A stretch of DNA of 64,000 nt from Callorhinchus milii (taxonomy: Eukaryota). This document shows, piece after piece, positions 26,540-48,394 of the stretch; within the stretch, counting starts at the first letter, position 1; the number at the start of each line of letters is the position of its first letter. The notes under the pieces were generated by a model. The model had not been told where the DNA came from. It did not search any database and saw nothing but the letters and a program-made list of their open reading frames with translations. The stretch is from contig NW_024704742.1 of assembly GCF_018977255.1 (NCBI RefSeq), positions 70,496,001 through 70,560,000 on the forward strand, read 5' to 3'. The position numbers were made by a program, and so were the translations under genes.

Positions 26540-27170
26540 ATAACACGATGTATGTTACTGGCTATAACTGCATATTATATAATAACAATCTATTATTGGC
26601 TATAACACTGTATATTATGTAATAACACACCATGTGTTACTGTCCATAACACTGTATATTATATTAAAGCACTGTATTATATAATAACACACTGTCCGCT
26701 CCTGGCTACAACTATATTATACAATGTATGTTACTGGCTATAACATTGTATATTATATAATAACACACTGTGTTACTGGCTATAACATTGTATATTATAT
26801 TATAACACACTGTGTTACTGGCTATAACACTGTATATTATATAATAACACACTGTGTGTTACTGGCTAAAACACTGTATATTATATGATAACACACTGTG
26901 TTACTGGCTATAACACTGTATATTATATAATAACACACTGTGTGTTACTGGCTAAAACACTGTATATTATATGATAACACACTGTGTTACTGGCTATAAC
27001 ACTGTATATTATATAATAATACACTGTGTGTTACTGGCTATAACTGTATATTATACCATGTATGTTATTGGCTATAACGCTGTATGTTATATAATAACAC
27101 ATTGTGTGTTACTGGTTATAACCGTATAATATATAATAACACAATGTGTGTTACTGGCTATAACACTATA
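26540..27170 (+). repeat. AT-rich ~40-nt minisatellite (ATAACACACTGTGTTACTGGCTATAACACTGTATATTATATA)n; short relative at 60236-60410
   Basis: seen directly. Confidence 0.92.
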
Positions 27171-35640: not shown

Positions 35641-35733
35641 TTTTCACTGTATTGTGTGATAGTCTGATCCATCTGCTCTCGCCCTCTCCCTCCCACTCGC
35701 GTAACTAACCCTAGATTGTTTGCCGTTGCACAG

Positions 35734-35875
35734 AACAAGGTTTTCATTTACCGAGGCAAAGAGTACGAGAGGCGCGAGGACTTCGAGTTGCAGCTCATGA
35801 TGCAGTTCCCGAACGCTGAGAAAATGAAAACAACATCGCCTCCGGGGGTGGATCTCAGGAGTGGCCCAGGACAAT
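35734..35875 (+). CDS. dock2-like: DOCK exon J ([17 protein letters not shown]...PGQ)
   Basis: cag|AAC...T|gtatcctt (U12-type donor). Confidence 0.96.
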
Positions 35876-35916
35876 GTATCCTTCCTCTCCATTTTGCTTT
35901 TATAAAATAGTTTGTG

Positions 35917-36400
35917 TGTCAGCCGCGCTCAGTTGATAGCACTCTCACTACTAATGATTTCCAAGTCTCCCACTTCAGTACTTGGACTCAAATAGTCCAG
36001 GTTGATGCAGTGGGAAAGGGAAGGGGGCCCTGTTGGCGGAGGTGCCGTCCTTTCCGAAGAGACGTTAAACAGAAGTCCCGTCCACGTGTTCAGGTGGATG
36101 TTAAAGATCCCGCAGCGCTATTCCTCGGCACTGGAGCATCACTGCCCCCTGCTGGTTGGTTACCTTTACTGTCGTTCACAGTCATTCAGTGCTTCACTCT
36201 CCCAGTGTCCTGGCCACGAATTCCCCAGATAAAATGATTTACTCATTTCATGGTTATTTGCGGGATGTTGCTGGGTGCAAATTGGCTGCTGAGTTTGCCT
36301 ACAAAATGCAGGCACTACACTTTACAGAAAACCCTGAGTAGCTCTTTCAAATTCTTCCCATCATGAAAGGCCCTGTATCAAATGTAAGAATTATTATTAT
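35917..36400 (+). mobile_element. Deu-domain SINE carrying the 67-nt acceptor copy
   Basis: family sequence is interrupted where AAAAGAGAAGGGAGTTTCTC normally lies. Confidence 0.85.
36131..36197 (+). repeat. Perfect 67-nt copy of 36920-36986 (branch point + acceptor + start of exon K) inside a SINE
   Basis: base-by-base identity. Confidence 0.95.
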
Positions 36401-36970
36401 TCAATTTACATTCACACAGCGCCTTTCACATCAGAAGGGCATCTCAAAGTGATTCACCTGCATAAGGAGGGGGATGGGGGGATGGGGAAGGGTAAAGATG
36501 AACAAAACAACAGTCTTGAGGTAGAACTTGAATGGAGGAAGGCAGGTAGAGAAGCAGAGGGACTCTGGGAGGAAGCTCTCGTATTGTTGGAGCTCCCTCG
36601 CTGTATCAAATCCCCTTTGGCTTGAAGGTTAATAGGAGCTGAGTGGGAGGATTCCCTGCCCCCAGTGACTGCTCTGCCCATCCAAGACCTGCCGATGAGC
36701 CGGGCTGGGCTGGGCTGGGCTGTCATCAGCAGTGCCCTGGAATACTGCCGATCCACCACTAAAGACCCACACAGATGATGGACTGGATTCCGACATTCTA
36801 TGGCCAAACATGTCACATTGGAGCCAGTTCATCTCCGAGACCGCGCTCACCTTCCACCACCTCCGTCGGATGGGTAGAGGAGGTGGTGAGACATGTTTCT
36901 GCACTGGGGAATGGTCTGCCTGGAGCATCACTGCCCCCTGCTGGTTGGTTACCTTTACTGTCGTTCACAG

Positions 36971-37052
36971 TCATTCAGTGCTTCACCGTCCAGCCCGTCC
37001 AGGAGGAACCGAGCAAATTCCACAACAAAAATGTTCCAGAACAGATTGTCAA
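36971..37052 (+). CDS. dock2-like: DOCK exon K (FIQCFTVQPVQEEPSKFHNKNVPEQIV)
   Basis: cag|TC...AA|gtaggt; IQCFTVQP motif. Confidence 0.95.
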
Positions 37053-37164
37053 GTAGGTCACTCAACAACAACAACATGCACTTATGTAGCGCCCTCCATG
37101 CAGAGTAGCGTCTCAGAGTGCTCGGCAACCACTACGCACACAAGACCTGCATGGAAATGCAAAT

Positions 37165-38300
37165 TGGGGGATGTCAGGGGATGTGGGGGTTGGATGTGTG
37201 GGGGGGTTTGTGGTATTGAGAGTATGGGTGGGGGTTGGGTTGGGGGTGGGGGTGTTGGGGGAGTTGGGTTTGGGGTGGGGGTGTTGGGGGAGTTGGGTTT
37301 GGGGTTGGGGTGTTGGGGAGTTGGGTTTGGGGTGGGGGTGTTGGGGGAGTTGGGTTTGGGGTGGGGGTGGGTTGGGGGAGTTGGGTTTGGGGTGGGGGGT
37401 TGGGGGAGTTGGGTTTGGGTGGGGTGTTGGGGGAGTTGGGTTTGGGGTGGGGGGTTGGGGAGTTGGGTTTGGGGTGGGGGTTGGGGGAGTTGGGTTTGGG
37501 GTGGAGGTGTTGGGGGAGTTGGGTTTGGGTGGGGGTGTGGGGGAGTTGGGTTTGGGGTGGGGGTGTTGGGGTGGGGTGGTTGGGGGAGTTGGGTTTGGGG
37601 TGGGGGGTTGGGGGAGTTGGGTTTGGGGTGGGGGGTTGGGTTGGGGGTGTGGGGGAGTTGGGTTTGGGGTGGGGGGGTTAGGTTGGGGGTGTGGGGGTGT
37701 TGTGGGGTTGGGTTTGGGGTTGGGGTGTTGGGGAGTTGGGTTTGGGGTGGGGGGGTTGGGGGAGTTGGGTTTGGGTGGGGGTGTTGGGGGAGTTGGGTTT
37801 GGGGTGGGGGGTTTGGGGTGGGTTTGGGGTGGGGGTGTTGGGGGGGTTGGGTTTGGGGTGGGGGGGTTTGGGGGTTGGGTTTGGGTGTGGGGTGTGGGGG
37901 GGGTTGGGTTTGGGGTGGGGGTGTTGGGGGGTTGGTTTGGGTGGGGGTGTTGGGGGGTTGGGTTTGGGGTGGGGGTTGGGGGGTTGGGTTTGGGGTGGGG
38001 TGTTGGGGGGTTGGGTTTGGGGTTGGTGTTGGGGTTGGGTTTGGGTGGGGTGTTGGGGGGTTGGTTTGGGGGTGGGGTGTTGGGGAGTTGGGTTTGGGTG
38101 GGGGTTGGGAGTTGGGTTTGTGGGTGGGGGTTGGGTGGGTGGTTGGGGGTTGGGTTTGGGGTGGGGGTGTTGGGGGGTTGGGTTTGGGGTGGGGTGTTGG
38201 GGGGGTTGGGTTTGGGGTGGGGGTGTTGGGGGGGTTGGGTTTGGGGTGGGGGTGTTGGGGGGGTTGGGTTTGGGGTGGGGGTGTTGGGGGGGTTGGTTTA
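37165..38300 (+). repeat. G/T-rich ~29-nt satellite (GGGGGTGTTGGGGGAGTTGGGTTTGGGGT)n
   Basis: seen directly; fills intron K-L. Confidence 0.95.
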
Positions 38301-46298: not shown

Positions 46299-46367
46299 CT
46301 GCCCCCCCTCACCACCAGCAACAACACCGTGGGACAGTGAACAGGACGGCAGCCAGGCACTGGGTGT

Positions 46368-46655
46368 GATGTCGCATTGCCTGGCGATGTGGCATTGCCT
46401 GGCGATGTGGCATTGCCTGGCGATGTGGCATTGCCTGGCGATGTGGCATTGCCTGGCGATGTGGCATTGCCTGGCGATGTGGCATTGCCCGGCGATGTCG
46501 CATTGCCTGGCGATGTCGCATTGCCCGGCGATGTCGCATTGCCTGGCGATGTGGCATTGCCTGGCGATGTCGCATTGCCTGGCGATGTGGCATTGCCTGA
46601 TGACATCAGATTGCCCAGTGATGTCACATTGTTTGGTGATGTCAGGTTCTCCAGC
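46368..46655 (+). repeat. 18-nt minisatellite GATGT(G/C)GCATTGCC(T/C)GGC in the DOCK 3'UTR: 13 near-perfect + 3 degenerate units
   Basis: units read directly at 46368-46601, degenerate to 46655. Confidence 0.95.
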
Positions 46656-46731
46656 GATAACGTTGAGGGAGGGTGGGAGGGGAAAATAGAAATGGGAGGG
46701 GCAGTATACTTTTTTAATGCCATTACCTTGT

Positions 46732-46737
46732 ATTAAA
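46732..46737 (+). terminator. Probable polyadenylation signal ATTAAA of the DOCK gene
   Basis: ATTAAA ~430 nt after the stop, followed by a GT/T-rich element at ~46775-46797. Confidence 0.6.
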
Positions 46738-47275: not shown

Positions 47276-47457
47276 AATCACAAAATGGTGCAGTGTTAGG
47301 AATTAGCCACAAGGCGGCAGTGGTCGGTTGACCACACAAGAGATTCAGAATGTTGGATGTAGTTTGGCTCCACCAGGAATGCTGCAGGTCACTGAGCTCA
47401 GTGGTCAAACAATAATAATAATAATCCTTGCATTTGATATAACGCCCATAGCACCCC

Positions 47458-47744
<287 letters not shown>

Positions 47745-48394
47745 TCCCTTCGCCCCACCCAGGCACCCATCCCCTGCCCGCCGCCTCCCCCTCCTCCAGC
47801 CGGCTCAAACCTTCTCTACCTCCTTCAGCCCCCCACCTCCCTCCCCTCGCTCCCTCCCCCCCCCTCACCCTACACCCCCCCCTCCCCCCTCCCTCAAAGC
47901 TTAAATCCCCTCGTCTGAGGGGACGTTAAAGTCATATTGCAAAGATGTAACAAAGAACCTGTGGCCAACAATCTCCCAGATAAAATCCTCCACTCACTTC
48001 ATGGCTGTTTGTGGGGATGTTGCTATGTGCAAATTAGTTGCCGCATTCACCCACACAAACAGCCATCACACTTTAGTTACAGCAATTCCCTGTGACATGC
48101 TTTAAGATGTTTGGGCATTATACAGCTGCGATATTAAATGCAAGGATTGCCTCCACAAAACCTTTTTCCACTCTGCACATTCCTAGGTTTTTTTTGTAGG
48201 GCGTTTCTGTGTAAAAATTAGCTGCTGTGTTCAGCTACAAAATTCTGTGTGCAAATTAGCTGCTGTGTTCAGCTACAAAATAGAGTCAGGCCACTCTACA
48301 GTAATTACCATGAAGCACTTTGAGATGTTTTGATGCGATAAGGTGCTGTGTATAAATGCTCGGATTGTTTTATTGTGAGTTTTGTGTGGTTTGG

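What the first reader, a model, noticed from the sequence alone, without database searches (positions are those of the whole stretch)
36131..36237. Perfect decoy copy of a U12 branch point and acceptor, ahead of the real one, leading to a stop
Seen: 36131-36197 is 67/67 identical to 36920-36986 and contains the branch-like TTACCTTTAC, the CACAG acceptor and the first 16 nt of exon K. It replaces an internal stretch of a SINE and is met first by the donor (306-nt vs 1095-nt intron). Splicing to it reads FIQCFTLPVSWPRIPQIK then TGA (36235-37), cutting DHR2 before the catalytic lobe. Established: U12 acceptor choice depends mainly on the branch sequence and its short distance to the AG, both of which are copied. 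Inference: a recent templated insertion creating a competing poison acceptor that could lower functional GEF or yield a GEF-dead isoform.
Basis: partly seen in the sequence, partly recalled or inferred. Interest (0 to 1): 0.8.

Follow-up and report, generated by a model that had tools for sequence, protein, structure and literature searches.

The report
Copied minor-intron acceptor inside DOCK2 intron
A 67-base exact copy of the branch site and acceptor of a rare "minor-type" intron of the elephant shark DOCK2 gene was pasted into an old repeat 789 bases upstream in the same intron, most likely as a DNA-repair scar; whether cells ever splice to it is still untested.

Summary
Window 36131-36197 equals 36920-36986 at 67 of 67 bases, and these are the only two copies in the 991-Mb genome.

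The gene is Callorhinchus milii DOCK2. The intron after exon J begins GTATCCTTC. All 4 DOCK paralogue exons found in this genome are followed by GTATCCTT in the same phase, so it is an old U12-type intron.

The copy carries the branch motif, the AG and 16 exon bases. Together with a 7-nt filler it replaces 17 nt of an old SINE. That is the signature of a templated repair insertion.

A short-read contig of another run covers its right junction. A separately deposited protein model reads across both junctions, so mis-assembly is unlikely.

Splicing to the copy would give FIQCFTLPVSWPRIPQIK, then a stop. This removes most of DHR-2 lobe B and all of lobe C.

No RNA data covered exons J or K, so use of the decoy is untested. 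The full-length protein records use the real acceptor.

My reading is a real, fairly young repair scar that is probably at most a minor, NMD-bound competitor. Interest is moderate to low.

The parts
35734..35875 (+). DOCK2 exon J (residues about 1350-1397, phase 1 at its end)
   Evidence: 100% match to P0002. It matches human DOCK2 residues 1358-1404 in PDB chains 6tgb, 3b13 and 2yin.
35876..35884 (+). U12-type 5' splice site GTATCCTTC
   Evidence: Read. It is the only [AG]TATCC match in 35701-37100. The same GTATCCTT follows the homologous exon in 4 of 4 paralogue matches. The consensus (A/G)UAUCCUUU comes from passages of PMC8199999.
36023..36123 (+). 5' part of an old SINE copy (may begin near 35920)
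   Evidence: blastn to window paralogues at 72-91% identity; alignment A1. Depth from many paralogous contigs was very high in all 4 runs.
36124..36130 (+). 7-nt filler CTCGGCA, matching neither the SINE nor the template
   Evidence: Alignment A1. No 9- to 12-mer template lies within 6 kb on either strand; only scattered 8-mers matched.
36131..36197 (+). Decoy copy: 51 intron bases plus 16 exon bases. Branch motif TACCTTTAC at 36161-36169 (candidate branch A at 36168), AG at 36180-36181, exon-like bases 36182-36197.
   Evidence: 67 of 67 identity. The right junction lies inside contig record 4 of run X1, which covers 36131-36304 with 1 mismatch. Both junctions are spanned by the last 98 residues of protein model P0124.
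36198..36418 (+). 3' part of the same SINE. It supplies the out-of-template reading LPVSWPRIPQIK.
36235..36237 (+). TGA stop reached if the decoy acceptor is used
   Evidence: Translations.
36381..36389 (+). Best U2-like donor after the decoy, AAT|GTAAGA (7 of 9 to MAG|GTRAGT). It would bound a 202-nt cassette.
   Evidence: Consensus count. The consensus is recalled and this is not a trained score.
36920..36986 (+). Template: the authentic branch site (36950-36958, candidate branch A at 36957), AG (36969-36970) and the first 16 nt of exon K
   Evidence: Contig record 8 of run X1 covers 36795-36949 with 0 mismatches.
36971..37052 (+). DOCK2 exon K (residues 1397-1424), followed by a U2-type donor CAA|GTAGGT
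   Evidence: tblastn of P0002. P0002 and P0122 read [32 protein letters not shown].

Best explanation
This is a genuine germline repair scar. A break inside an old SINE in the U12-type intron between DOCK2 exons J and K was mended by copying 67 nt from 789 nt downstream on the same strand. The repair lost 17 nt of SINE and added a 7-nt filler. By accident the copied piece holds the whole U12 branch motif, the AG at the same 13-nt spacing, and 16 exon bases. The intron therefore has two identical core acceptors. I expect the real acceptor to win in most transcripts, because only it is backed by exon K: a U2-type donor 82 nt downstream and a purine-rich run. The decoy would then be used rarely, if at all, giving a transcript with a stop at 36235 that nonsense-mediated decay should remove. 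Shown here: the DNA structure, the intron type, the reading frame and the origin inside the SINE. Inferred: the repair pathway, and the low usage.
For: - Exact 67 of 67 copy, only 2 places in the genome.
- In alignment A1 of the locus with 9 window paralogues, the consensus has nAAAAGAGAAGGGAGTT (17 nt) where the locus has 7 + 67 nt. Paralogous contigs in the reads skip 36111/36123 to 36198 with about 20-32 other letters between (tables 5, 5c, 7).
- 3 of 9 paralogues read GAGCTTCTC at the right junction. That shares GCTTC with exon K's GTGCTTCAC, a possible priming microhomology.
- The copy is in the DNA. X1 contig record 4 covers 36131-36304 with 1 mismatch. It starts exactly at the repeat's first base, and record 8 stops 30 nt into the repeat. 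This is what a 31-mer graph gives when two different left flanks exist. The last 98 residues of P0124 equal the translation of 35941-36234.
- U12 type: GTATCCTTC donor; 4 of 4 paralogue exons are followed by GTATCCTT. 2 of the 3 other paralogue loci held the next exon, each with a TCCTTGAT or CTTAAC motif 10-12 nt from the AG. Human DOCK2 and DOCK5 are listed among U12-intron genes (PMC13135317, table passage).
- The real acceptor is the one in the full-length records: P0002 and P0122, both 1834 aa and differing at 1 residue.
- Context: exon definition between a downstream U1-bound donor and the minor spliceosome (PMC8329584 passages). In long introns the splice sites closest across the exon are preferred (PMC9225289 abstract).
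Against: - There is no RNA evidence either way. The two guessed-RNA runs had zero depth on exons J and K.
- The core signals are identical and the decoy is met first.
- Its 306-nt intron is short enough that pairing across the intron could favour it (PMC9225289 abstract).
- Passages of PMC1874599 argue that, with an intact U12 5' site, the U12 partner can locate other branch and 3' sites.
- The shared branch motif matches the consensus at only 6 of 8 positions, so neither site is strong on its own.
- Microhomology cannot be proven, because the ancestral SINE sequence at this locus is unknown. The 7-nt filler has no template.
- 67 nt copied from 789 nt away is longer and farther than the typical templated inserts described in the passages I read.
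Confidence: 0.6

Rival explanations
1. The decoy is a strong competitor. A sizeable share of DOCK2 pre-mRNA (more than about 10-20%) is spliced 35875^36182, giving NMD-targeted or truncated GEF-dead product and lowering DOCK2 output.
For: The branch motif, spacing and AG are identical. The decoy is transcribed first and makes a 306-nt intron. An intact U12 5' site can drive use of other branch and 3' sites (PMC1874599 passages). The stop at 36235 lies far upstream of at least 10 later exon junctions.
Against: No junction data exist. Both full-length records use the real acceptor. The decoy lacks exon K's donor at 82 nt and its GGAGGAA run; the nearest 7-of-9 donor is 202 nt away. Heavy use would cut an immune gene. 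That objection is weak, because as I recall DOCK2 deficiency is recessive in humans.
Confidence: 0.2
2. The copy acts as a non-productive decoy. U12 snRNP, or a decoy exon 36182-36383 bounded by the copied acceptor and the GTAAGA donor, engages the U12 donor without completing splicing. The result is more retention of this intron rather than a new junction.
For: The decoy-exon model for retention of introns longer than 1 kb (PMC6097662 and PMC7373989; search listing and abstract starts only). A 7-of-9 donor lies 202 nt after the decoy. Minor introns are often slowly spliced or retained (PMC8199999 passages).
Against: Nothing here measures retention. The described decoy exons use U2-type sites. 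The protein models that read through this intron (P0124, P0003, P0126) contain jumps that avoid stops and are not GT-AG, so they are not transcript evidence.
Confidence: 0.12
3. Assembly or polishing artefact: the copy does not exist in the animal's DNA.
For: An exact short duplication inside a repeat is the kind of thing a mis-join could make. The best DNA run may come from the same sample as the assembly (warning).
Against: A short-read contig covers the repeat and its right junction, with graph breaks exactly at the repeat edges. P0124, a separately deposited model, spans both junctions. Its sister models stop in the repeat after exon K, which suggests they were built on a different, more fragmented assembly (inference).
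Confidence: 0.03

Closest known systems
Templated insertions at repaired breaks: polymerase-theta end joining (PMC4490562, passages) and MMBIR-type template switching (PMC8421209, passages)
   Same: A small deletion at the site plus an insert identical to nearby sequence on the same chromosome, with possible short homology at one junction and a short untemplated or multi-step filler at the other. Such scars are described as germline variants that accumulate in evolution.
   Different: The inserts in the passages I read are copied from close proximity to the break, and one search tool looks only within 100 bp. Here 67 nt come from 789 nt away. Microhomology is only plausible (3 of 9 paralogues). 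Enzyme dependence cannot be tested from sequence.
Cryptic U12-type branch and 3' site use in WDFY1 and LKB1 (PMC1874599 passages; PMC8329584 passages)
   Same: With an intact U12 5' site, the minor spliceosome can pick another branch site and 3' site in the same transcript.
   Different: Those cases are triggered by mutation of the authentic signals, and the cryptic sites are weaker look-alikes. Here the authentic site is intact and the alternative is an exact copy of it.
Engineered competing U12 3' splice sites in minigenes (Dietrich et al. 2001a and 2001b; seen only as reference-list entries in PMC6800510; content recalled, papers not held)
   Same: Two U12-type acceptors competing for one donor. 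As I recall, the choice responded to purine-rich enhancers and to the branch-to-AG distance.
   Different: Those were laboratory constructs. This is a natural allele in a genome, with 789 nt between the sites.
Decoy exons that promote intron retention (PMC6097662, PMC7373989; listing and abstract starts)
   Same: An intronic splice-site pair that engages the flanking sites and yields unproductive RNA.
   Different: The known examples use U2-type sites and are conserved regulatory elements. This one is an unconserved, accidental copy with a U12-type acceptor.

Membership tests
U12-type (minor) intron | 5' splice site matching (A/G)TATCCTTT directly at the exon end | tested here: met
   GTATCCTTC at 35876. 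It is the only such motif in 35701-37100. Consensus from PMC8199999 passages.
U12-type (minor) intron | Branch sequence like TCCTTAAC lying 10-20 nt (best 11-13) from the 3' site | tested here: inconclusive
   ACCTTTAC matches 6 of 8. The candidate branch A lies 13 nt before the exon, so the distance criterion is met and the motif is only partly met.
U12-type (minor) intron | Conservation of the intron, its type and its phase in paralogues or orthologues | tested here: met
   4 of 4 paralogue exon matches in this genome are followed by GTATCCTT in the same phase. Human DOCK2 and DOCK5 are listed as U12-intron genes (PMC13135317 table passage). The contig of relative organism B covers 35690-35913.
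U12-type (minor) intron | Removal by the U11/U12-U4atac/U6atac spliceosome | not testable with these tools
   Needs snRNA knock-down or lariat mapping.
Templated repair insertion (TMEJ or MMBIR class) | Insert identical to a nearby sequence, with loss of bases at the insertion site | tested here: met
   67 of 67 identity to sequence 789 nt downstream on the same strand. 17 SINE bases are missing relative to the consensus of 9 paralogues.
Templated repair insertion (TMEJ or MMBIR class) | Microhomology at the junctions between the flank and the template | tested here: inconclusive
   Right junction: GCTTC is shared with 3 of 9 SINE paralogues, but the consensus has GTTTC. Left junction: a 7-nt filler with no template within 6 kb.
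Poison or decoy splice acceptor (functional) | Spliced reads that join the donor to the decoy | not testable with these tools
   No RNA holder was listed.
Poison or decoy splice acceptor (functional) | Premature stop upstream of later exon junctions when the site is used | tested here: met
   TGA at 36235-36237 in frame. At least 10 further coding exons follow.

The most novel reading that the evidence does not exclude
The copy is a working second U12 acceptor. A substantial, perhaps tissue-dependent share of elephant shark DOCK2 transcripts is diverted to a dead-end isoform. That would make it a natural, possibly polymorphic, hypomorphic allele of an immune gene, and a ready-made in vivo test of how the minor spliceosome chooses between two identical branch sites 789 nt apart.
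Probability: 0.18. Interest if true: 0.55.

Novelty: new member of a known kind. Interest (0 to 1): 0.33.

Why it matters
U12-type acceptors are thought to be chosen almost entirely from the branch sequence and its distance to the AG. A natural intron with two identical copies of both signals separates those core signals from context: distance to the donor, exon definition and enhancers. If the decoy is silent, context dominates even for minor introns. If it is used, a single repair scar has created a leaky allele of DOCK2, a gene whose loss, as I recall, causes immunodeficiency in humans. Either way it is one locus in one species. It is a neat test case, not a new mechanism.

Tried and rejected
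- RNA evidence: no RNA holder was listed. I laid two guessed-RNA contig sets (X5, X7), and both gave zero depth on exons J and K, so nothing can be said about junctions. The tool warns that conserved exons may be filtered out as human-like.
- My own setting: I set min_likeness to 85 so that a relative could be laid too. This flooded the tables with SINE paralogues (28,516 pieces not shown), so the piece over the left junction was not displayed.
- Relative organism B (X12): exon J has 23 mismatches and 2 gaps over 224 nt. It is too distant to date the insertion.
- Pfam-by-genome exon mapping gave only one hit inside the window. I replaced it with tblastn of P0002.
- UniRef models P0003, P0124, P0125 and P0126 were considered as transcript evidence and rejected. 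Their jumps avoid stops and are not GT-AG; for example, the skip after 36338 begins with TAG.
- None of the 9 C. milii records listed shows the spliced decoy form, that is, the FIQCFT start of exon K joined directly to GPGQ and followed by the decoy reading LPVSWPRIPQIK.
- Template for the 7-nt filler: none found.
- Local RNA accessibility: the branch 9-mer is unpaired with probability 0.067 (decoy) against 0.019 (real); for the AG 5-mer the values are 0.032 against 0.262. This does not discriminate.
- Earlier notes of this scan: none for this place.
- Print search: searches listed no paper on a natural duplicated U12 acceptor or on this locus. The searches were not exhaustive. Dietrich 2001a and 2001b are not held.

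Full report
**What is there.** Window 36131-36197 and 36920-36986 are identical at 67 of 67 bases, and at 97% over 72 nt. A 51-nt core with up to 3 mismatches occurs only at these two places, and 0 of 100 shuffles gave any match. A search of the whole 991-Mb assembly returns exactly these two places. Among exact repeats of 30 nt or more in the window, it is the longest that is neither tandem nor low-complexity. In 199,997 bases sampled from 20 other places of the genome, the same filter (40 nt or more, within 5 kb) found 2 hits: an 85-nt direct pair that looks like the heads of two SINEs, and a 42-nt hairpin. Local exact copies like this one are therefore uncommon.

**The gene.**
- Exon J (35734-35875) is 100% identical to Callorhinchus milii DOCK2 (P0002, 1834 aa). 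It aligns to human DOCK2 residues 1358-1404 in solved structures.
- tblastn places 21 matching segments of P0002, residues about 1050-1834, along window 307-46295.
- Exon K is 36971-37052.
- The full-length records P0002 and P0122 read ...[32 protein letters not shown]..., which uses the acceptor at 36970|36971.
- Pfam places DHR-2 lobe A at 1199-1326, lobe B at 1394-1465 and lobe C at 1505-1607.

**The intron is U12-type.**
- It starts GTATCCTTC, the only [AG]TATCC match in 35701-37100.
- All 4 matches to exon J in this genome (DOCK2 and three paralogues) are followed by GTATCCTT in the same codon phase.
- For 2 of the 3 other paralogues the next exon lay inside the fetched locus. Each has TCCTTGAT or CTTAAC 10-12 nt before its AG.
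- The DOCK2 branch motif ACCTTTAC matches TCCTTAAC at 6 of 8 positions. Its A lies 13 nt before the exon, within the 10-20 nt range and close to the 11-13 nt optimum (PMC8199999 passages; PMC6800510 passage).
- Human DOCK2 and DOCK5 appear in a table of U12-intron genes (PMC13135317).

**How the copy got there.**
- The copy lies inside an old SINE whose paralogues in the window are 70-91% identical to it (41 HSPs).
- In the alignment with 9 paralogues the consensus reads ...GCGCTATTC-nAAAAGAGAAGGGAGTT-TCTCTCTCC... The locus reads GCTATTC (36117-36123), CTCGGCA (36124-36130), the 67-mer, then TCTCCCAGTG.
- So 17 SINE bases were lost and 74 gained.
- Contigs from SINE paralogues in the laid runs show the same thing. 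They jump from 36111/36123 to about 36198 with some 20-32 other letters between (tables 5, 5c, 7).
- 3 of 9 paralogues have GAGCTTCTC at the right edge, sharing GCTTC with exon K's GTGCTTCAC. If the ancestral copy read so, a resected end could have annealed there and primed copying leftward into the intron.
- No template for the 7-nt filler exists within 6 kb.
- A deletion plus an insert copied from nearby, possible microhomology and a filler together match templated insertions of theta-mediated end joining or MMBIR-type template switching (passages of PMC4490562 and PMC8421209). However, 67 nt from 789 nt away is long and far for that class.
- The template must be the real acceptor. Its exon part encodes the conserved IQCFT, and no SINE paralogue carries the 67-mer.

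**Age.** Zero differences in 67 nt give, by my Poisson arithmetic, a 95% upper bound of about 2-4.5% divergence per site since the event. That is far younger than the SINE, but not necessarily recent in years.

**Is it real DNA?**
- In run X1 (same species, a different data type), contig record 4 covers 36131-36304 with 1 mismatch and begins exactly at the first base of the repeat.
- Record 8 covers 36795-36949 with no mismatch and ends 30 nt into the repeat.
- That is the pattern a 31-mer graph gives when the repeat has two different left flanks. This step is an inference.
- X1 may come from the assembly's own sample.
- Separately, the UniRef model P0124 ends with 98 residues identical to the translation of 35941-36234, which spans both junctions of the copy.
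- Its sister models end in or just before the long repeat after exon K. This suggests they were built on another, more fragmented assembly (inference).

**What it could do.**
- Joining 35875 to 36182 gives FIQCFTLPVSWPRIPQIK and then TGA: 1402 authentic residues plus 12 new ones. This loses nearly all of lobe B and all of lobe C.
- At least 10 coding exons follow, so by the usual 50-55-nt rule (recalled) the transcript should be an NMD target.
- After the decoy the best U2-like donors score 7 of 9, at 36384, 36449 and 36628. Exon K's own donor is also 7 of 9, but only 82 nt from its acceptor.
- Exon K holds CAGGAGGAACCGAGCAAA. The decoy is followed by pyrimidine-rich SINE sequence.
- Exon-definition contacts between a downstream U1-bound donor and the minor spliceosome are documented (PMC8329584 passage).
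- In long introns the sites closest across the exon are preferred, while in short introns the sites closest across the intron pair (PMC9225289 abstract).
- These points favour the real site. The last one also gives the 306-nt decoy intron a chance.
- Passages of PMC1874599 say that an intact U12 5' site lets the U12 partner find other branch sites.

**What I could not show.** I have no RNA evidence. No RNA holder was listed, and the two guessed-RNA contig sets had zero depth on exons J and K. The odd UniRef models that run into this intron are not transcript evidence. P0122 carries an accession which, as I recall and did not verify, belongs to transcript-derived entries. If that is right, the canonical junction is seen in mRNA.

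**Verdict.** The functional part is open, and I consider strong use of the decoy less likely than not. It is a new instance of two known things, a templated repair scar and a cryptic splice acceptor, with the unusual feature that the acceptor is U12-type and an exact copy of the real one.

Noticed in passing
window 37153-38300 and on to about 39600: The intron after exon K holds a very long G-rich minisatellite with a unit of about 14 nt (34 or more copies in register). GC skew is +0.48 over 36-38 kb. Several deposited DOCK2 models stop here, as if an earlier assembly broke in it.
   Followed up: partly
L003-L006 (four DOCK paralogue loci of the same genome): All four keep a GTATCCTT donor after the homologous exon in the same phase, so this U12 intron predates the paralogue duplications.
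   Followed up: yes
proteins P0003, P0124, P0125, P0126, P0121, P0001 (UniRef models of this gene): Six deposited DOCK2-like models end inside or just after this region with intron read-through and jumps that avoid stops and are not GT-AG. They look like annotation artefacts, not isoforms.
   Followed up: partly
window 46341-46733 and 47438-47926: Just past the DOCK2 stop there is a 36-nt tandem repeat (reads GDVALP in one frame), followed by a run of about 490 nt of CCN/C-rich sequence that is open in three frames as poly-proline.
   Followed up: no
bins 36270-36443 and 36618-36675: The SINE family in this intron is at very high summed depth in the same-species runs and in relative organism B. 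The family is therefore shared with a relative whose exon J differs by about 10%.
   Followed up: no
P0002 versus P0122, residue 1261: The two full-length DOCK2 records differ at one residue (N versus S), consistent with different source individuals or alleles.
   Followed up: no
window 26802-27020: An 86-nt-period tandem repeat, exact over 132 nt, lies in an upstream DOCK2 intron.
   Followed up: no
L019 1876-2651: An 85-nt exact direct repeat 691 nt apart in a random genome sample. It is tRNA-like (GAGTTCAATTCC...), probably the heads of two young SINEs.
   Followed up: no
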